Below, one piece after another: positions 1-12,025 of a DNA stretch of 15,511 nucleotides (positions are counted from its first letter, which is position 1; each line of letters opens with the position of its first letter). The position numbers and the translations under genes were made by a program. The stretch lies in UHGV virus genome UHGV-1637942; one strand, given 5' to 3'. The stretch is from a virus. The notes under the pieces were generated by a model. The model searched no databases. It was given only the letters and a program-made list of their open reading frames with translations, and had not been told where the DNA came from.

Positions 1-2337
1 AATATTGCTACTGGCGGCTATCCAGTACAGCGCCGTACCAAGATAACGCGCGCTGGTTTCAACCTGCCTGATATCGATAATCCGCTTTTCCGAGAACCAG
101 AACTCAAACTGCACCGTCGGGTCATATACAGCCAGTTTCGGGACCGCTGTTATCTGAAAATACCCTGGTATCAGTTCAATAGTGACAGGCGCTGCCGGTG
201 CCGCAATCCGGAACGATACCGATGCCGGATCGCCCTGCTGCCCCCACGCATTTACCGCCCGGACCGTCAGCGTGTAACGCCCCAGCGCCAGTTGCCTGAA
301 GCGGTATGTGGTTTCCGTCGTCCGGGCCATGCTGACCAGCCGCTCACTGCCGTCGTCCGCTGCCACGGTAAGGCGAAGCAGGAAGCTCACGCCCTTCACC
401 ACCTTCGGCGTGTCCCATCGCGCCAGCACCTGATATTCCCCGCTGTCTGCGGTGACTTCGGCGGTCAGGTGCTGCACCGCTGGCGGCGTGACACCATTCA
501 CCGTGCCGCTCTGGTCGCCGTCAAAGTGCGCCCCGTTATCCACGATGGCTTCTTTTTCCGGTACATGCTGCACGGCGGTGATGGCATACGTACCGTCATC
601 GTTCTCCCGGATACTCACACAGCGGAACAGGCGCTGGCGCAGCGTCGGCAGCTTCAGCCCCCACACGCTGTATTCGGCAACGCCGTCAGGAACCCGGCTC
701 ACTTTCACCTTCACGCCGTCGGTGACGGACTGAACCTCCACGCTCACCGGATTACCCTGCCCGTCAACCAGGCTTATCAGCGTGGTGCCGGAGGATGGCA
801 GCGTGATTTCACGGTCGAGCGTCAGCGTCCGGGTCTGGCTGTTCACCGCCAGCACACGACCACCGGTGCTGATACCGGCATAGTCATCATCACAGATTTC
901 AATGACATCGCCCGGTACATGGCGAAGCCCTTCTGCGCCCACGCTGAAGTCCACGGTCTGCGTTTCCAGCAGTTCCGTTTTAATCAGCCACAGCCCGGCG
1001 CGGTGTGCCTGCCCCCGGCTGGTACAGCCAAAGGCATCCATCTTCGTGACGTTACGACCGTAACGGGCAATGGCCTGCGTATCTTCAACAAGCTCTGTCG
1101 CCGTCTCCCAGCCGTTGTTCGGGTCAATCCAGTTCACCTCAACGGCATTATGGCGGTCCTTCAGGGCGCTGAAGCTGTAGCGGAACGGCGCGCCATCATC
1201 CGGCATCACCACATTACTGCGGTTATAGGTCCACACCTTATCTGATGGTCGGTCCTGCACGAACGTCAGCGTCTGCCCGTTCCATACCGGCATACAGCGC
1301 ATCGCCGAGCAGAAATCACTGAGAACATCCCACGCCTTACGCTGTTGTGCCAGGTACGCATTAAAGGTCATCCGCGGCTCGGTCCCCCCGAAACCATCCG
1401 GGACCGTCTGGTCGCAGTACTGCCCGATGGCATACAGCGCCCACTTGTCCACATCCGCCGCCCCCAGACGTTTTCCCATGCCGTAGCGCGGGTGAGTCAG
1501 CATGTCCCACAGACACCAGGCCGGATTGTTGCTGTATGCCGGTTTCAGACTGCCGTCCCAGATACCACTGTACGTGCGTTTTTCCGGGTCATAGTTTGAC
1601 GGCACCTGGATGATGCGACCGCGGATATGGTAGTTCACCGTCATCTGCTGGCCGCCGAACTGCTCCGCATCCACCTGCAGCCCCACAATGGCCGTGTTCG
1701 GGTAGCACTGTTTCACATCGATGATTTCGGTGTATGACGACCACAGCGTCTTATTCTGCAGCTGGTCCGTGGTGCTGTCCGCCGTCTCCCTGACCATCCG
1801 GATGTTAAAGGGCCGGGGAGGCAGATTATCCAGAATCACCGAGGCCAGGAACTGCGAGGTGGTCTTGCCGTTAATGGTGACATCCTTTTCCGTCACCCAG
1901 CGGCCATTACGCTGTAACTGAATCAGAATCCGGACAGAGGAAGGATTACGGTCGCCCTTTGACGTGGTCTGCACCAGTGACTGCACCCCGAAGGTAACCC
2001 GCAGGCGGTCAATGTTCGCGGACGTAATGGTGCGCGTCACCGGTTTTGCCTTCGTCACTTCCACGCCCAGTCCGGTTTCAGCTCCGGAGGACTCAAAGCC
2101 TTCCGGTGGTGTCTGCTCCTGCTCCCCGGCACGCCAGACCGCGGTCACACCGTGTATCACGGGATTACCGTCCGTGTCCGTCAGCGGGGTTTTGTTCACC
2201 AGAATACTCTGCAGTCCCTTCACCGGACCTTCTATCGGTCCCTCACCAATCGCATCAATCACACTCATCATCTGCGTGGATTTGAGATTATCCTTCGCCT
2301 CACGAGGCGTGTGTGCCTTACCGCCACCTTTTCCCAT
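1..2337 (-). CDS. J: Tail tip attachment / host-specificity protein J (central tail fibre), N-terminal 779 codons; the 3' end lies beyond position 1
   Basis: Minus-strand frame is open from ATG (plus-strand CAT at 2335-2337) to the window edge; it is absent from the ORF track because no stop falls inside the window. My translation starts [39 protein letters not shown] and ends [16 protein letters not shown] at position 1, recognisable as lambda gpJ. SD-like GGGGAAGG lies 6-8 nt upstream. Confidence 0.9.
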
Positions 2338-2443
2338 ACAGCCTTCCCCTGAATAAATTAACCGCCACTTGCCATTCCGTACAGAAGTCGGATATCCTTC
2401 GCCCGAAAAGCATGAAACACATTTCTGCCATGCTAAAGAGAAA

Positions 2444-2475
2444 CCCCGGTATCAGCAGATACCGGGGTTTTCTTT
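2444..2475. terminator. Perfect 10-bp inverted repeat CCCCGGTATC / GATACCGGGG with a 4-nt loop, flanked by an A-run upstream and TTTTCTTTC downstream; candidate bidirectional intrinsic terminator or protein-binding palindrome
   Basis: Read directly: aaaCCCCGGTATCagcaGATACCGGGGttttctttc (stem 2444-2453 / 2458-2467). The complementary strand has the same hairpin followed by TTTCTCTTT. Confidence 0.45.
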
Positions 2476-2542
2476 CATGCCCACCGATAATCCTGTTGGT
2501 TAAAACCGGTAATGGCATAAAAATTCTGAATATCTTCACATT

Positions 2543-2570
2543 TTCACACACTGACTGTGGCGCGTATAAT
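2543..2570 (+). promoter_or_regulatory. Sigma70-like promoter on the plus strand: -35 TTCACA (2543-2548), 16-nt spacer, -10 TATAAT (2565-2570), with an AT-rich upstream tract
   Basis: Read directly: atcttcacatTTTCACAcactgactgtggcgcgTATAATttctctgcg. Perfect -10 consensus, 5/6 match at -35, spacer 16 nt. Points away from J and towards the 3' end of I, antisense to the late operon. Confidence 0.5.
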
Positions 2571-2576
2571 TTCTCT

Positions 2577-2680
2577 GCGTTAATTTTTTTGTCGTGATAT
2601 AAGAATAATTCCTTACACTTAATCTTCGTAACTCTCCCGCAGTTCCTGTCCGCGATCACTGCGGGATTTTTTTATTCTTT
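2577..2680 (+). ncRNA. Candidate small non-coding RNA of about 100 nt, antisense to the I-J intercistronic region of the late operon; family unknown
   Basis: Bracketed by the promoter (TSS predicted near 2577) and the intrinsic terminator at 2635-2680. No ATG-initiated ORF in any plus-strand frame in this interval. Contains a C/U-rich stretch (CCUUACACUUAAUCUUCGUAACUCUCCC) before the terminator hairpin. Confidence 0.4.
2635..2680 (+). terminator. Rho-independent terminator on the plus strand: 9-bp stem TCCCGCAGT / ACTGCGGGA, 14-nt loop, then TTTTTTTATTCTTT
   Basis: Read directly: TCCCGCAGTtcctgtccgcgatcACTGCGGGAtttttttattcttt. Lies immediately 3' of the I stop codon on the opposite strand (convergent). 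Confidence 0.55.
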
Positions 2681-5040: not shown

Positions 5041-7598
5041 CCACCGCTCCCTGATAACATACCGCCATCACGCAACTGCAGCCGGAGTTCATCCTGTGCC
5101 CCCTTGCGGGCCATCTCATACACCGCTTTCATCAGCTGCGGCCCTGCCCGCCCGTTGGGGCCGTCGTTCTGAATCACCACGTGATTGTTCTGATTAAAAT
5201 TAATGCCTTCCGCCCGCCGCATCTGCGCCGGACTTCCGGCACCGCCGACATAACCACCTTCCGCATAGCCCCGCATCAGGCGGTACAGGTTCCCGACACC
5301 AATCCGGCTGGTTGCCTCCTTCGTGAAGACAAACTCCCCGCGGTGGACAATCCCCGCTGGCTCATATTTGCCGCCGGTTCCCGTAAATCCTCCGGTCGCA
5401 AAATGGAATTTCGCCGCAGCTGCCTGAATGGCTGTACCGCCTGACGCGGATGCGCCGCCACCAACAGCCCCGCCAATAGCGCTGCCGATACTCCCGACAA
5501 TCCCCACCATTGCCTGCTTAAGCAGAATTTCTGTCATCATGGACAGCACGGAACGGGTGAAGCTGCGCCAGTTCTGCTCACTGCCGGTCAGCATCGCCGC
5601 CATATTCTGTGCAATACCATCAAAGGTCTGCGTGGCAGCACTTTTTACCTGCGACATACTGTCCGTGGCGCTCTCTTCCCACTCACTCCAGCCGGACTTC
5701 AGGCCTGCCATCCAGCTCCCGCGAAGCTGGTCTTCAGCCACCCAGGTCTTTTTCTGCTCTGACATGACGTTATTCAGCGCCAGCGGATTATCGCCATACT
5801 GTTCCTTCAGGCGCTGTTCCGTGGCTTCCCGTTCTGCCTGCCGGTCAGTCAGCCCCCGGCTTTTCGCATCAATGGCGGCCCGTTTTGCCCGTTGCTGCTG
5901 TGCGAATTTATCCGCCTGCTGCGCCAGCGCGTTCAGGTGCTCCTGATACGTAACCTTGTCGCCAAGTGCAGCCAGCTGGCGTTTGTACTCCAGCGTCTCA
6001 TCTTTATGCGCCAGCAGGGATTTCTCCTGTGCAGACAGCTGGCGACGTTGCGCCGCCTCCTCCAGTACCGCGAACTGACTCTCCGCCTTCCACAAATCCC
6101 GGCGCTGCTGGCTGATTTTCTCATTTGCTCCGGCATGCTTCTCCAGCGTCCGGAGTTCTGCCTGAAGCGTCAGCAGGGCAGCATGAGCACTGTCTTCCTG
6201 ACGATCGCCCGCAGACACCTTCACGCCGGACTGTTTCGGCTTTTTCAGCGTCGCTTCATAATCCTTTTTCGCCGCCGCCATCAGCGTGTTGTAATCCGCC
6301 TGCAGGATTTTCCCGTCTTTCAGTGCCTTGTTCAGTTCTTCCTGACGGGCGGTATATTTCTCCAGCGGCGTCTGCAGCCGTTCGTAAGCCTTCTGCGCCT
6401 CTTCGGTATATTTCAGCCGTGACGCTTCGGTATCGCTCTGCTGCTGCGCATTTTTGTCCTGTTGAGTCTGCTGCTCAGCCTTCTTTCGGGCGGCTTCAAG
6501 CGCAAGACGGGCCTTTTCACGATCATCCCAGTAACGCGCCCGCGCTTCATCGTTAACAAAATAATCATCCTTGCGCAGATTCCAGATGTCGTCTGCTTTC
6601 TTAAACGCAGCCTCTGCCTTAATCAGCATCTCCTGCGCGGTATCAGGACGACCAATATCCAGCACCGCATCCCACATGGATTTGAATGCCCGTGCGGTCC
6701 TGTCTGCCCAGGTCTCCAGCGTGCCCATGTTCTCTTTCAGGCGGCGGGTCTGGTCATCAAACCCTTTCGTTGCGGCCTCGTTCGCCGCCTGCAATGCCCC
6801 GGCTTCATCGCCGGAACGCTGCAACTGAGCAACATACGCAATCTGCTCCGCCGTCACGTTATGGAACTGCTTCGCCATCGCAATCAGCCCCGACGTCGGG
6901 TCAGTGGTCAGTTTTCCGAAAGCCTCTGCAACCTTGTCCACCTCCACACCGGATGCAGAAGCAAAACGCGCGACACTCTGGTTGATGGCATCAAACTGTT
7001 CACCACCACGCACACCGGCATTCACCATGGCTGCCAGTGACTCACTCGCCTGGTTAAACGTCAGCCCTGCGGCCTGTCCGGCTCTGGAGAGCGTCAGCAT
7101 GCGATCGGCAGTCAGTCCGGACTGATTACCGGAAAGAACCAGGGTTTTATTAAACGCTGAAAGCGTGGAATCTCCCTGGTACCAGGCGTACACCAGCGCA
7201 CCTGTCGCCACCGCCAGCGAGGTGACCCCGACCATCGGCAGGGTGATCGCACCGGCAAGCCCCCTGAACATGGGGATCATCCCGCCGAAGGAGTCCTTAA
7301 CCTGACCACCCTGTTGCAGCAGGATCAGCCACGGGCTTTGCCCGCCTGCAAGCTGCGTGGCCACGTCGGTGAACTGTGCAGGCAGCATACGCATGGCGGC
7401 TTTATACTGCCCGACGGAAATCCCCGCTTTCTGTGCAGCCAGCGCCTGTCGGTTCATTGACTGTTCAACGACTGCCGCTGTTTTTTTCGCATCACTTTCC
7501 GTACCGGAAAAATGACGCCTGACTCTGGCCATCTGCTCGTCAAATCTGGCCGCATCCAGACTTAAATCAACGACCAGATCGCCTACCGGTTCAGCCAT
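5037..7598 (-). CDS. H: Tail tape measure protein H
   Basis: ORF of 853 aa, MAEPVGDLVVDLSLDAARFDEQ..., with the Ala/Gly-rich hydrophobic segment and coiled-coil-like K/E/Q/A-rich centre of lambda gpH. ATG at 7596-7598 overlaps the end of the T frame by 8 nt. Confidence 0.95.
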   Translation of the reverse strand: MAEPVGDLVVDLSLDAARFDEQMARVRRHFSGTESDAKKTAAVVEQSMNRQALAAQKAGISVGQYKAAMRMLPAQFTDVATQLAGGQSPWLILLQQGGQVKDSFGGMIPMFRGLAGAITLPMVGVTSLAVATGALVYAWYQGDSTLSAFNKTLVLSGNQSGLTADRMLTLSRAGQAAGLTFNQASESLAAMVNAGVRGGEQFDAINQSVARFASASGVEVDKVAEAFGKLTTDPTSGLIAMAKQFHNVTAEQIAYVAQLQRSGDEAGALQAANEAATKGFDDQTRRLKENMGTLETWADRTARAFKSMWDAVLDIGRPDTAQEMLIKAEAAFKKADDIWNLRKDDYFVNDEARARYWDDREKARLALEAARKKAEQQTQQDKNAQQQSDTEASRLKYTEEAQKAYERLQTPLEKYTARQEELNKALKDGKILQADYNTLMAAAKKDYEATLKKPKQSGVKVSAGDRQEDSAHAALLTLQAELRTLEKHAGANEKISQQRRDLWKAESQFAVLEEAAQRRQLSAQEKSLLAHKDETLEYKRQLAALGDKVTYQEHLNALAQQADKFAQQQRAKRAAIDAKSRGLTDRQAEREATEQRLKEQYGDNPLALNNVMSEQKKTWVAEDQLRGSWMAGLKSGWSEWEESATDSMSQVKSAATQTFDGIAQNMAAMLTGSEQNWRSFTRSVLSMMTEILLKQAMVGIVGSIGSAIGGAVGGGASASGGTAIQAAAAKFHFATGGFTGTGGKYEPAGIVHRGEFVFTKEATSRIGVGNLYRLMRGYAEGGYVGGAGSPAQMRRAEGINFNQNNHVVIQNDGPNGRAGPQLMKAVYEMARKGAQDELRLQLRDGGMLSGSGG

Positions 7599-10174: not shown

Positions 10175-10528
10175 TCAGCGACGACGGCTGGCGGCAGGTG
10201 GTTGCCCCCGGTTGAGCCAGAGATAACAACTCCCTCCGTCATCCGGAGAAACACGGTCCACCCAGAACATCTCGCCGTTAATGGTCAGCGTGTCACCACG
10301 CCGTACAGCACAAACCGTATCCGTAAGCACAAATAATGACGGGTTACTTCCTTCAATACGGATCCCACTACTGGCAAAACCCAGCGACTCCGGATCGTCA
10401 AAAACGCCATGAACCTCGCCGCCACGCTGTGCACCGGAGGGGAACTGCGCACTGATGCCCATCACTTCAACAATCGTACTGTCCACCCCGGCAAGGGCGG
10501 CATCAAAGGCATTCTGAAAATCACGCAT
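10175..10528 (-). CDS. FII: Head-tail joining (head completion) protein FII
   Basis: ORF frame 10175..10564; start placed at MRDFQNAFDAALAGVDSTI (ATG at 10526-10528), 117 aa, ending ...VDRVSPDDGGSCYLWLNRGQPPAASRRR, recognisable as lambda gpFII. Overlaps the FI stop by 8 nt. Confidence 0.9.
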   Translation of the reverse strand: MRDFQNAFDAALAGVDSTIVEVMGISAQFPSGAQRGGEVHGVFDDPESLGFASSGIRIEGSNPSLFVLTDTVCAVRRGDTLTINGEMFWVDRVSPDDGGSCYLWLNRGQPPAASRRR

Positions 10529-10895
10529 AAACAGCCATTCCACCATCAACGTGTGTTTTTGCATCTGAGGACATAATCAGAATCACCCGACCAACATCCG
10601 CAAGCTCAACGGATTCCCCCGTTTCACCATCAACGCCACAGAGATGGAGGCAGGTCAGAACTCTGATGCGCGTTAACGCGCCGGATGTTTCCTCACGAAC
10701 ATCATGAGCCGCGGTTTCCCGCTCCCGGATATCCATATTCATAACCTGTACATCATCGCCGGATGACTGCATTTCCTCTTCCCATTCTGCCACCCGCTGC
10801 GCTATCTCTGCGGCACTCCCGGATATATCCGGCTCACGCCCCAGAATCAGGGCCAGTTCATCAAGCCGTTTCAGATTTTGCTCTTTCGTTGCCAT
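10521..10895 (-). CDS. FI: DNA packaging / head assembly protein FI
   Basis: ORF frame 10521..10943; start placed at MATKEQNLKRLDELALILGRE (ATG at 10893-10895, SD AGGGGG 6 nt upstream), 124 aa. Acidic, in the position of lambda FI but more divergent than the tail proteins. The upstream 16 codons of the track ORF run through a terminator hairpin and are rejected. Confidence 0.8.
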   Translation of the reverse strand: MATKEQNLKRLDELALILGREPDISGSAAEIAQRVAEWEEEMQSSGDDVQVMNMDIRERETAAHDVREETSGALTRIRVLTCLHLCGVDGETGESVELADVGRVILIMSSDAKTHVDGGMAVYA

Positions 10896-10906
10896 ATCAG
10901 CCCCCT

Positions 10907-10938
10907 GTGAAAAAAGACACGGGGGCATTTCGCCCCCG
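10907..10938 (-). terminator. Intrinsic-terminator-like hairpin between E and FI: 7-bp GC stem (CGGGGGC / GCCCCCG), 5-nt loop, then TTTTTT on the minus strand
   Basis: Minus strand reads TAA(E stop)tccgtgagCGGGGGCgaaatGCCCCCGtgtcTTTTTTcacagggggctgatATG(FI). Plus-strand coordinates: stem 10920-10938, A-run 10910-10915. Confidence 0.5.
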
Positions 10939-10946
10939 CTCACGGA

Positions 10947-11975
10947 TTATTTCACCTGTACCACCACAAACTCATCCGGGTCCGGCAACACCATCAGCGG
11001 CGCGGACTGCGTCATGGTAAATTCACGGGCGGGATCCCCTACCGTCAGCCAGTGTTTCGGATAACGGGAAGAGGCCACCACACCTTCGGACAACGCCTGA
11101 GCATCCTGAATGGCACCGTAACAACGGATCCCATCTGCAGCAGTATTCCCCAGAACCAGCATGCCATCTGGAAGATAACGTTTTTCGATACCGTCTTCTG
11201 CTATATAAGACATTTTCGCCACCACAATGGCCAGATCGCCGTAATACCCCTTGAAGGACACCACTGCGCCCAGATCTTTCACTGCCGTTTCGAGTTGAGA
11301 ATTTGAACCGCGACGGGTATCCAGTTTTTCGCGGAACAGCTTAAAACCATTCAGAAGACGCCAGACGGTACCGTCCATAATGGCAATATTCACAAGACCG
11401 CTGGCCTGGTCGCAGTAGAGGTCAATATCATGTGTAGGATCGAACGTGTCACGATCCTGTTTTGACCACTCCTTACCACTACCCTGAGTGATGTTATTCT
11501 TCGTCGACCTGCCAAAATCGACCTCAATTTTCTCGAACTGGTCTCCTTCCATGGTGTATTTGCCATACAACACAGCATTTACCGCCTGCATTTCTTCCAC
11601 CTGGACAATCGCGTGCTCTTCCTGTTTGAGGTTATCGGTAATGATACGCAGACGGCGGTAAGCCGGATCATTCAGTTGAGATGGATCTTCACCAGGAAGG
11701 CGCTCAACCGCCTGCTGGTAATTAAATTCGTGTTTCGGCTTGACGTAGCCCGGACGCAACACGCGGGTTTCACCACCACGATGACGCAGCACTTTTCCTT
11801 CAACAACCGGGGAGACATAGGCCGCCACCGGCGTTTTTCCGGTAATTTTGTCCAGCATCACCTCTTCGGTGTGGAAATTCACCGTACGGCGGAAAAACAG
11901 CTCCAGAAATAGCGCACGGAATTTAACTTTTTGTTCGGTATAACCGAGTAACTGGCGGGTCGTAAACAATCCCAT
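10947..11975 (-). CDS. E: Major capsid protein E
   Basis: ORF of 342 aa, MGLFTTRQLLGYTEQKVKFRALFLELFFRRTVNFHTEEV...DPDEFVVVQVK, recognisable as lambda gpE. ATG at 11973-11975 with SD AGGA 8 nt upstream. Confidence 0.93.
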   Translation of the reverse strand: MGLFTTRQLLGYTEQKVKFRALFLELFFRRTVNFHTEEVMLDKITGKTPVAAYVSPVVEGKVLRHRGGETRVLRPGYVKPKHEFNYQQAVERLPGEDPSQLNDPAYRRLRIITDNLKQEEHAIVQVEEMQAVNAVLYGKYTMEGDQFEKIEVDFGRSTKNNITQGSGKEWSKQDRDTFDPTHDIDLYCDQASGLVNIAIMDGTVWRLLNGFKLFREKLDTRRGSNSQLETAVKDLGAVVSFKGYYGDLAIVVAKMSYIAEDGIEKRYLPDGMLVLGNTAADGIRCYGAIQDAQALSEGVVASSRYPKHWLTVGDPAREFTMTQSAPLMVLPDPDEFVVVQVK

Positions 11976-12003: not shown

Positions 12004-12025
12004 TCAGGCCAGCGCGGTGGCCTGA
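12004..12025 (-). other. Intercistronic RNA hairpin between D and E: 8-bp stem TCAGGCCA / TGGCCTGA with a 6-nt loop
   Basis: Read directly on the plus strand, TCAGGCCAgcgcggTGGCCTGA, lying between the D stop (12033) and the E SD/ATG. The minus-strand RNA has only a short, interrupted U-tract after it (cugauuucug). Confidence 0.4.

What the first reader, a model, noticed from the sequence alone, without database searches (positions are those of the whole stretch)
10896..10946. Terminator-like hairpin directly after the major capsid gene, with the FI ribosome-binding site starting right after its U-tract
Between the E stop and the FI start, the minus-strand RNA folds as CGGGGGC-gaaau-GCCCCCG followed by UUUUUU, and the FI Shine-Dalgarno (AGGGGG) begins immediately after. 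This would favour high E and D output (hundreds of copies per capsid) over FI and FII output (catalytic or low copy). It could act as a partial terminator, or as a 3' stabilising hairpin after processing. I do not know whether the homologous lambda spacer has the same element.
Basis: seen in the sequence. Interest (0 to 1): 0.4.

Follow-up and report, generated by a model that had tools for sequence, protein, structure and literature searches.

The report
Conserved RNA hairpin after capsid gene
A strong, terminator-like RNA hairpin sits just after the major capsid gene of this phage 21-type prophage; almost every lambda-family phage examined has one at the same spot, so it is a real, conserved but ordinary kind of element whose exact job is still untested.

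Summary
On the minus strand, the 51-nt spacer between the major capsid gene (phage 21 gene 7, lambda E homolog) and the FI homolog folds as GCGGGGGC-GAAAU-GCCCCCGU (10939-10919, -16.8 kcal/mol). One correction: the U6 run (10915-10910) starts 3 nt after the stem, not directly after it. The Shine-Dalgarno AGGGGG follows 3 nt later.

Lambda has a hairpin at the same place (AUGGCCC-UUCG-GGGCCAU), and so do nearly all E-family loci I fetched. Their stem sequences are unrelated. They show sense-strand G.U pairs, recurrent UUCG or GNRA loops, and one compensatory G-C to A-U change. Positional enrichment gives Fisher p = 2e-6.

U-rich tails are common but missing in several lineages. The hairpin stays with the capsid gene even where the downstream gene is not FI.

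Late transcription in these phages is by Q-modified, termination-resistant polymerase. I therefore favour a role on the RNA itself, as a barrier to 3'-to-5' exonucleases, and termination only of polymerases that lack Q. Attenuation of late transcription seems less likely. None of this has been tested experimentally.

The element is not new in kind. The N15 GenBank record already annotates the homologous stem-loop as a putative terminator, and a phage L paper says the roles of such terminators inside late operons are unknown.

The parts
10947..11975 (-). Major capsid protein gene (phage 21 gene 7, lambda E homolog), including the UAA stop at 10949-10947
   Evidence: ORF list. The region is 99.7% identical to phage 21, where it is annotated as major capsid protein. 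The protein is 62% identical to lambda E.
10919..10939 (-). RNA hairpin GCGGGGGC-GAAAU-GCCCCCGU: 5' arm 10939-10932, loop 10931-10927, 3' arm 10926-10919
   Evidence: Sequence. Terminator scan, top hit. MFE folds. Stem energy -16.8 kcal/mol. Position conserved across E-family loci.
10910..10918 (-). 3' tail GUC + UUUUUU (U6 at 10915-10910)
   Evidence: Sequence. The TransTermHP-style tail score is -3.08, which only 4.1% of positions on this strand reach.
10901..10906 (-). Shine-Dalgarno AGGGGG of the FI homolog
   Evidence: Sequence. Annotated as a ribosome-binding site in both phage 21 records.
10521..10895 (-). FI homolog (phage 21 ORF1, DNA packaging protein)
   Evidence: Pfam PF14000 Packaging_FI, E = 2.7e-16. 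Annotated in phage 21.
10940..10946 (-). Optional lower stem: UCCGUGA, just after the stop codon, pairs with UCAC-A-GGG (10910-10903) in the MFE. This partly covers the Shine-Dalgarno.
   Evidence: MFE structures. A thermodynamic prediction only; conservation not shown.
12004..12025 (-). Companion hairpin in the spacer between the decoration gene (shp, lambda D homolog) and the capsid gene
   Evidence: Terminator scan. The phage 21 D-E spacer fold is -22.6 kcal/mol, and lambda and N15 have a canonical terminator there. The same is seen across lambda-type loci. N15 annotates it as a putative terminator.

Best explanation
This is the phage 21-type version of a hairpin that lambda-family (E-type capsid) phages keep, at the same position, at the 3' end of the major capsid cistron. 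It is built like an intrinsic terminator: a G+C-rich 7-8 bp stem, a stable small loop and a U-rich tail.

Proposed mechanism (inferred, not shown):
- During lytic growth the late operon is transcribed by Q-loaded polymerase, which reads through the hairpin.
- The hairpin then folds in the finished RNA.
- After an endonuclease cuts in the single-stranded U-rich or downstream region, the hairpin blocks 3'-to-5' exonucleases.
- The decoration and capsid mRNA segment then outlives the FI-FII-tail segment.
- The hairpin acts as a true terminator only for polymerases that lack Q, such as stray transcription in a lysogen.

The existence, anatomy and conservation of the hairpin are shown. The RNA-stability role is inferred.
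For: Hairpin and coordinates.

Same position in relatives, with unrelated stems:
- Lambda: AUGGCCC-UUCG-GGGCCAU, 2 nt after the E stop.
- Also N15, phi80, an Aeromonas phage and about 30 prophage loci from Escherichia, Providencia, Serratia, Erwinia, Klebsiella, Kluyvera, Cedecea and others.
- Also 6 of 8 distant E-family phages: Chi, NotEvenPhaged, BcepNazgul, Carli, K288 and RcMrWorf.
- In most loci it is the best, or among the best 2-4, of about 44 control blocks. Fisher p = 2.2e-6 over 12 stem types.

Selection acts on the sense-strand RNA:
- G.U pairs that would be C-A on the other strand.
- C(UUCG)G or GNRA loops recur on independent stems.
- A compensatory G-C to A-U change in a 93%-identical E. 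coli/Shigella relative.
- Among close E. coli variants the loop, U-tract and Shine-Dalgarno vary, but the stem pairing does not.

The hairpin matters more than the U-tract. Tails are U-poor in the Trabulsiella and Cedecea loci and in Chi, NotEvenPhaged and RcMrWorf.

The hairpin stays with the capsid gene where the downstream gene is not FI.

Late transcription complexes resist termination. [quoted passage not shown]

Established knowledge: 3' stem-loops protect upstream segments of polycistronic mRNAs from PNPase and RNase II. Examples are malE-malF REP, the Rhodobacter puf operon and papBA.
Against: - No RNA 3'-end, coverage or half-life data for phage 21 or lambda could be found or generated.
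- U-rich tails are clearly enriched after these hairpins: median score -3.0 against -1.96 background, with half at or below -3.0 against about 4%. The neighbouring D-E hairpin of lambda-type phages is a textbook terminator with an A-tract and U7-8. An exonuclease block does not need a U-tract, so this points to selection for real termination.
- The major tail gene V, also very highly expressed, has no such hairpin.
- Hairpins also follow the low-copy genes I and J in phage 21.
- From memory and unverified: Sampson et al. 1988 attributed differences in lambda late-gene expression mainly to translation initiation.
Confidence: 0.42

Rival explanations
1. Insulating terminator. The hairpin is a genuine intrinsic terminator whose job is to stop polymerases that were not loaded with Q, such as stray initiation inside the head genes or read-in during lysogeny. 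It would then have no role in setting capsid:FI stoichiometry during lytic growth.
For: - Terminator-type anatomy and U-enriched tails.
- Canonical terminators also sit in the D-E spacer, and in phage 21 in the I-J and J-stf spacers.
- Zaworski et al. list exactly this possibility for terminators inside late operons (PMC8022706).
- It is compatible with Q read-through.
Against: - It does not explain why the hairpin survives without a U-tract in several lineages.
- It does not explain why the hairpin is tied so tightly to the 3' end of the capsid gene, whatever the downstream gene.
- In phage 21 the U-tract is displaced by 3 nt from the stem. In lambda the stem starts only 2 nt after the stop codon of a heavily translated gene; from general knowledge, that placement lowers termination efficiency.
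Confidence: 0.22
2. Partial terminator of late transcription. A fraction of late transcription complexes stop here. Capsid and decoration mRNA then exceed FI, FII and tail mRNA.
For: - Hairpin plus U-rich tail.
- The position is after the two most abundant head-protein genes.
- Partial termination is one of the two possibilities named in PMC8022706.
- Weak terminators balance expression in other phages, including T7 (PMC9163698).
Against: - Q-loaded polymerase resists termination by a steric mechanism, processively over tens of kilobases.
- The proximal tail bases are not U.
- Several relatives lack a U-tract.
- All tail genes lie downstream and must still be expressed. Two or three such sites in series would compound the loss.
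Confidence: 0.15
3. Translational insulator or FI ribosome-binding-site control. The hairpin uncouples FI translation from the very heavy ribosome traffic on the capsid gene by blocking re-initiation or 70S scanning. In this allele, pairing of flanking bases with the Shine-Dalgarno also damps FI translation.
For: - The hairpin ends a fairly constant 17-27 nt before the next start codon.
- Most other late genes overlap or are under 15 nt apart, whereas the capsid-FI junction has a spacer.
- In the window the MFE pairs UCCGUGA with UCAC-A-GGG of the Shine-Dalgarno.
- The 3' arm can pair with the Shine-Dalgarno region at -15.6 kcal/mol. Predicted accessibility of the Shine-Dalgarno is 0.43, falling to 0.11 if the first bases after the stop codon are masked.
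Against: - The pairing with the Shine-Dalgarno is not conserved. Close relatives with the identical hairpin have AGGAGG, AGGAGA or AGAGGG, and the alternative helix falls to -9.4, -4.7 and -9.4 kcal/mol with no compensating change.
- Lambda-type spacers show no equivalent pairing.
- The insulator idea predicts no need for U-rich tails, yet they are enriched.
Confidence: 0.13

Closest known systems
Phage N15 stem_loop 7053-7073, annotated 'putative rho-indep. transcription terminator' right after gene 8 (major head protein), GenBank AF064539
   Same: Same genomic position: directly after the homologous E-type capsid gene and before the FI homolog. Same build: a 7-bp G+C-rich stem and a small loop. 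N15 also annotates a second stem-loop between the decoration and capsid genes, as seen here at 12004-12025.
   Different: The stem sequence is unrelated (GUGGCCC-AUUC-GGGCCAC). The N15 tail is U-poor (CUUUCUGG), whereas this element has U6. Neither has been tested experimentally, as far as I could find.
Lambda E-FI spacer hairpin (NC_001416 7163-7180, AUGGCCC-UUCG-GGGCCAU)
   Same: Homologous junction, a 7-bp stem, and a U-rich tail that leads into the FI Shine-Dalgarno.
   Different: It starts 2 nt after the stop codon, against 7 nt here. It has an extra-stable UUCG tetraloop. Its tail is interrupted (UGUUUCUCU). It is not annotated in either lambda record.
[quoted passage not shown] 2021, PMC8022706)
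   Same: A predicted terminator inside a Q-type antiterminated late operon, placed just after the capsid-building genes. The authors say such terminators are common and that 'their roles are not known'.
   Different: The capsid gene family is different (P22-type coat) and there is no sequence relation.
T7 T-phi terminator after gene 10 (major capsid). Established knowledge, supported indirectly by PMC9163698.
   Same: A leaky terminator hairpin directly after the major capsid gene that helps keep capsid mRNA in excess.
   Different: It acts on T7 RNA polymerase with no antitermination system, and its termination activity has been shown experimentally.
Intercistronic mRNA-stabilising hairpins: malE-malF REP, Rhodobacter puf, papB-papA.
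   Same: A stable stem-loop at the 3' end of the more highly expressed upstream cistron of a polycistronic mRNA. This is the mechanism I propose here.
   Different: Those cases have measured half-lives and mapped 3' ends; this one has none. REP elements are dispersed repeats, whereas all 8 listed hits to this element (a spread sample of 2,282 places) lie at capsid-FI junctions.

Membership tests
Intrinsic (Rho-independent) terminator | G+C-rich stem-loop (about 5-14 bp, loop 3-8 nt) on the transcribed strand, downstream of a stop codon | tested here: met
   An 8-bp stem (7 G-C/C-G pairs plus one G.U), a 5-nt loop, -16.8 kcal/mol, starting 7 nt after the UAA.
Intrinsic (Rho-independent) terminator | U-tract immediately (0-2 nt) after the stem | tested here: inconclusive
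   U6 is present but starts 3 nt after the stem (GUC-UUUUUU). The tail score of -3.08 is in the top 4.1% of the strand, but well below the -4 to -5 seen for the D-E terminators of lambda-type phages.
Intrinsic (Rho-independent) terminator | Produces RNA 3' ends or stops RNA polymerase in vivo or in vitro | not testable with these tools
   No transcript-end data were available. Ten full-text searches returned no study that mapped them.
Intrinsic (Rho-independent) terminator | Effective on the polymerase that actually transcribes the region | not testable with these tools
   By published structure and biochemistry, Q21- and Q-lambda-loaded polymerase cannot form terminator hairpins in the exit channel (10.1101/651190 and PMC9388147). 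The Q gene of this prophage lies outside the window.
Intercistronic mRNA-stabilising 3' hairpin | Stable stem-loop at the 3' end of the upstream cistron, with structure conserved rather than sequence | tested here: met
   At least 12 unrelated stem sequences at the same position, a compensatory change, sense-strand G.U pairs and stable tetraloops.
Intercistronic mRNA-stabilising 3' hairpin | The upstream segment has a longer half-life, with 3' ends at the base of the hairpin | not testable with these tools
   Needs rifampicin-chase RNA-seq or Northern blots, and 3'-end mapping.
Any curated RNA family (Rfam 15) | Match at or above a family's gathering score | tested here: not met
   No hit in the whole window at gathering thresholds. 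Around the spacer there were only chance-level hits at E = 4.4 and 8.5.
REP/BIME-type dispersed repeat | Many dispersed copies in unrelated intergenic regions of the host genome | tested here: not met
   The 131-nt query matches 2,282 places in 1,543 of 5,426 complete E. coli genomes. All 8 listed hits (a spread sample) lie between a major capsid gene and gpFI. No second copy appeared among the window's hairpins.

The most novel reading that the evidence does not exclude
In the phage 21 allele the hairpin could double as a ribosome-sensing switch. The Shine-Dalgarno region of FI (CACAGGGGGC) repeats the 5' arm, so the 3' arm can pair with either partner (-16.8 against -15.6 kcal/mol). Ribosomes terminating on the heavily translated capsid gene would mask the bases just after the stop codon and the start of the 5' arm. 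That would tip the 3' arm onto the Shine-Dalgarno and shut off FI translation in proportion to capsid translation. This would be an 'anti-coupling' device that sets the capsid:FI ratio. More broadly, hairpins after capsid genes would be RNA-level stoichiometry modules that work precisely because antitermination disables them as terminators.
Probability: 0.07. Interest if true: 0.55.

Novelty: new member of a known kind. Interest (0 to 1): 0.28.

Why it matters
Lambda-type late operons are the textbook case of a single 20-25 kb antiterminated transcript. Its products are needed in amounts that range from a few copies to more than 400 per virion.

Terminator-like hairpins inside such operons are common, yet a recent expert paper says their roles are unknown (PMC8022706). 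This analysis shows three things about the hairpin after the capsid gene:
- It is conserved in position across a wide span of E-type capsid phages.
- It is maintained at the RNA level.
- It is present in about 28% of complete E. coli genomes.

That makes it a clean, mutable intergenic target. It could be used to test whether differential mRNA decay, residual termination or translational insulation contributes to capsid stoichiometry. The practical gain is modest: better annotation, and guidance on which FI start codon is correct.

Tried and rejected
- Rfam, both at gathering thresholds and with a permissive scan: no family.
- Whole-spacer folding z-score (-1.59) and raw 30-nt window energies (9th in the window). 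These do not discriminate in this G+C-rich DNA. I replaced them with compact-hairpin block controls and tail scores.
- Classical covariation on a sequence-only MAFFT alignment of 16 lambda-type spacers. The GGCCC/GGGCC core is conserved in sequence, and only one outer pair shows compensatory change. The argument therefore rests on unrelated stems at the same position, not on covariation within one family. An alignment of all 24 spacers put the 21-type and lambda-type hairpins out of register.
- Alternative helix between the 3' arm and the Shine-Dalgarno, acting as a switch. It is attractive in the window (-15.6 kcal/mol) but is lost in close relatives with the same hairpin. Rejected as a conserved mechanism.
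- Upstream in-frame starts: GUG at 10943 and AUG at 10928. The 51-nt spacer keeps the capsid and FI genes in the same frame. Some records (PhiR12_4, phi80) start FI at a GTG in the corresponding spacer, upstream of or at the start of the hairpin's 5' arm. I rejected these because the Shine-Dalgarno-plus-AUG and the M(A)TKE N-terminus are conserved, and because the lambda spacer (41 nt) is not in frame with E.
- Opposite-strand function. On the plus strand the hairpin is followed by CUCACGGAUUAUUUC rather than a U-tract, so it is not a bidirectional terminator.
- Literature. Ten full-text searches found no experimental study of this hairpin in lambda or phage 21, and the exact sequences occur in no held paper. 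Liu et al. 2013, Casjens & Hendrix 2015 and Sampson et al. 1988 are not held.

Full report
WHAT THE WINDOW IS. The minus strand carries a lambda-like late operon: portal, protease/scaffold, decoration protein, major capsid protein, FI, FII, Z, U, V, G/T, H, M, L, K, I and the start of J. The capsid region is 99.7% identical to phage 21, genus Jouyvirus. There the genes are annotated as gene 7 (major capsid protein), ORF1 (DNA packaging protein) and gene 8. The capsid protein is 62% identical to lambda E. ORF1 matches Pfam Packaging_FI at E = 2.7e-16. The finding's coordinates, 10896-10946, are exactly the 51-nt spacer between the capsid stop codon (10949-10947) and the FI start codon (10895-10893).

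THE OBSERVATION. Read 5'-3' on the minus strand, the spacer is UCCGUGA GCGGGGGC GAAAU GCCCCCGU GUC UUUUUU CAC AGGGGG CUGAU AUG. The hairpin spans 10939-10919, with 7 G-C/C-G pairs plus a closing G.U and a 5-nt loop, at -16.8 kcal/mol. It is the top hit of the terminator scan, which found 30 sites against 13.5 +/- 3.5 in shuffles. U6 (10915-10910) begins 3-4 nt after the stem, not directly after it. The Shine-Dalgarno begins 3 nt after U6.

Energy alone does not set the hairpin apart in this G+C-rich DNA. It ranks 9th among 30-nt windows, and the 86-nt fold has z = -1.59. Other measures do. Of 25 perfect hairpins at -10 kcal/mol or better on this strand, only 2 have a U-rich tail, and this is the stronger. 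It is also the best compact hairpin among the ~44 blocks tested in its 2.4-kb locus.

LAMBDA AND OTHER RELATIVES. It does. Two nucleotides after the E stop codon lies AUGGCCC-UUCG-GGGCCAU (lambda 7163-7180), followed by UGUUUCUCUGUGGAGGAG and the FI start.

I collected E-family loci from annotated phages and from one genome per bacterial species. Of 34 distinct downstream sequences, 33 have a compact G+C-rich hairpin that starts within about 35 nt of the stop codon. Examples:
- N15 and phi80: GUGGCCC-NNNN-GGGCCAC.
- Providencia: CGGCGGG-GAAA-CCCGCCG-AUUUUUAUG.
- Serratia: AGGGGC-UACG-GCCCCU.
- An Aeromonas phage: GUGGGGCC-AGU-GGCCCCAC-UUUUGUUUU.
- Cedecea: UUCAGGGC-UUCG-GCCCUGAA.
- Trabulsiella: an 11-bp stem.

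In most loci this hairpin is the best, or among the best 2-4, of about 44 control blocks. Combining one representative per stem type, and counting the one locus without a hairpin as p = 1, gives Fisher p = 2.2e-6. Six of eight distant E-family phages (about 25-32% protein identity) also have a 55-81 nt spacer with a strong hairpin after the capsid gene. These are Chi, NotEvenPhaged, BcepNazgul, Carli, Vibrio K288 and RcMrWorf. Two others, X29 and phiNP, have no spacer. The hairpin stays with the capsid gene where the next gene is not an FI homolog, as in Trabulsiella and in the Chi/Nazgul/Carli group.

THE CONSTRAINT IS ON THE SENSE-STRAND RNA. Four observations support this:
- Stems contain G.U pairs that would be C-A mismatches on the other strand. 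One example is the GCCUCCG variant in 4 IMG/VR loci. Another is the outer pair in half of the lambda-type sequences.
- The extra-stable C(UUCG)G tetraloop recurs on unrelated stems in the lambda type, Cedecea and BcepNazgul. Providencia has a GNRA loop.
- A 93%-identical E. coli/Shigella relative changed GGGGGC/GCCCCC to GGGAGC/GCUCCC, a compensatory G-C to A-U change.
- Among close E. coli variants the loop (GAAAU, GAUAU, UAAAU), the U-tract (UUUUUU, UUUAUU) and the Shine-Dalgarno (AGGGGG, AGGAGG, AGGAGA, AGAGGG) all vary. The pairing of the stem does not.

Within the lambda-type group the GGCCC/GGGCC core is simply conserved in sequence, and only one pair shows compensatory change. The case therefore rests on different hairpins held at one position, not on covariation within a single family.

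HOW TERMINATOR-LIKE IS IT? A TransTermHP-style tail score is -3.08 for this element, a value that only 4.1% of positions on this strand reach. Across 28 stem types the median is -3.0 against a background of -1.96, and half are at or below -3.0. U-rich tails are therefore selected in many lineages. They are absent in others, including Trabulsiella, Cedecea, Methylorubrum, Chi, NotEvenPhaged and RcMrWorf. Here the three bases next to the stem are GUC.

CONTEXT IN THE OPERON. In phage 21 almost all late-gene junctions overlap or are 15 nt or shorter. The four spacers longer than 40 nt are D-E (57 nt), E-FI (51 nt), I-J (60 nt) and J-stf (58 nt), and all four hold hairpins. The record's authors annotated the last two as terminators. 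The window's D-E hairpin is at 12025-12004. In lambda-type phages the D-E spacer holds a textbook terminator, AAAGGCCGC-CUGU-GCGGCUUUUUUU. The major tail gene V has no hairpin after it.

MECHANISM. Lambdoid late operons are transcribed by Q-loaded polymerase. [quoted passage not shown] Q-lambda behaves likewise (PMC9388147).

It will still fold in the released RNA. I think the most likely role is a 3'-to-5' exonuclease barrier that gives the decoration and capsid mRNA segment a longer life than the downstream RNA. Termination would then apply only to polymerases without Q. Conservation of the hairpin without a U-tract, and its linkage to the capsid gene rather than to FI, favour this view. The enrichment of U-tracts and the canonical D-E terminators favour a true termination role, either insulation or partial termination. 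The phage L paper, co-authored by lambdoid-phage specialists, names exactly these two termination options and says the roles 'are not known' (PMC8022706). My confidences are:
- RNA-level stabiliser: 0.42.
- Insulating terminator: 0.22.
- Partial terminator: 0.15.
- Translational insulator or ribosome-binding-site control: 0.13.

AN ALLELE-SPECIFIC ODDITY. In the window the Shine-Dalgarno region CACAGGGGGC repeats the 5' arm, so the 3' arm can pair with it at -15.6 kcal/mol. The MFE also pairs UCCGUGA, just after the stop codon, with UCAC-A-GGG. Predicted accessibility of the Shine-Dalgarno is 0.43. It falls to 0.11 if the stop codon and the following 12 nt (15 nt in all) are masked, as by a terminating ribosome; the size of that mask is my assumption. 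Close relatives with the identical hairpin have Shine-Dalgarno variants that lower this helix to -9.4, -4.7 and -9.4 kcal/mol, with no compensation. I therefore treat it as incidental. It may make FI translation weaker in this allele.

COMPARISON WITH WHAT IS KNOWN, AND NOVELTY. The N15 GenBank record annotates the homologous stem-loop (7053-7073) and the D-E one as 'putative rho-indep. transcription terminator'. The phage 21 records and the lambda records do not annotate theirs. No Rfam family matches. No held paper contains the sequences. The element occurs at 2,282 places in 1,543 of 5,426 complete E. coli genomes, and all 8 listed hits (a spread sample) lie between a capsid gene and gpFI.

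It is thus a new, unannotated member of a known and long-noticed kind: terminator-like hairpins after capsid genes inside antiterminated late operons. The open point is their function, and that needs RNA-end and half-life experiments I could not run.

LIMITS.
- All functional statements are inference.
- The control blocks are mostly coding sequence, which is more G+C-rich and less U-rich than spacers.
- The loci are phylogenetically related, although the stems are not.
- My recollection of the older lambda literature (Sampson 1988, Ray & Pearson, Liu 2013) could not be checked.

Noticed in passing
window 2336-2680 (between the I-homolog stop codon at 2681 and the J start codon at about 2335, minus strand): The window has a ~345-nt non-coding insert where phage 21 has a 60-nt spacer. 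It holds three features:
- a near-consensus plus-strand promoter, TTCACA-16-TATAAT (2543-2570);
- a plus-strand terminator, TCCGCGATCACTGCGGG followed by T7 (2649-2672), which together with the promoter suggests an antisense small RNA of about 95 nt;
- the strongest hairpin in the window, AAACCCCGGTATC-TGCT-GATACCGGGGTTT (2441-2470).
The insert is present in 1,669 of 5,426 complete E. coli genomes, with nothing annotated under the listed matches. It has no Rfam hit. It is not AgvB or AsxR. [quoted passage not shown]
   Followed up: partly
window 12004-12025 (minus strand); lambda 6100-6125; N15 5980-6004: There is a second hairpin in the spacer between the decoration and capsid genes. In lambda-type phages it is a textbook intrinsic terminator (A-tract, GC stem, U7-8) in the middle of the late operon.
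   Followed up: partly
window 10928-10943; L084 (PhiR12_4) 1733; L086 (phi80) 1736: The 51-nt spacer keeps the capsid and FI genes in the same frame, with in-frame GUG (10943) and AUG (10928) upstream of the real start. Some GenBank records start FI at a GTG in the corresponding spacer, upstream of or at the start of the hairpin's 5' arm. This is probably a mis-annotation.
   Followed up: partly
loci L097-L112 and L134-L142 (genome contigs): Lambda E-type capsid gene matches, all at about 59-63% protein identity to the query as lambda E is, turn up in assemblies of unrelated organisms such as Neobacillus, Kitasatospora, Bradyrhizobium, Akkermansia and Prevotella. They are often on contigs of about 48.4-48.5 kb or on low-coverage contigs. 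The one spacer I read (L097) is identical to lambda's. This looks like lambda spike-in or control DNA contamination.
   Followed up: no
hit H21, Aeromonas phage AP1 MT713136.1 250152-250396: A 254-kb Aeromonas phage record contains 245 nt that are 98.4% identical to the capsid gene of this E. coli phage 21-type prophage. This may be an assembly chimera or contamination.
   Followed up: no
phage 21 OL657228 15649-15673 and 19195-19222 (locus L149): In phage 21 all four late-operon spacers longer than 40 nt (D-E, E-FI, I-J, J-stf) contain a hairpin. The record annotates the last two as terminators but not the first two.
   Followed up: yes
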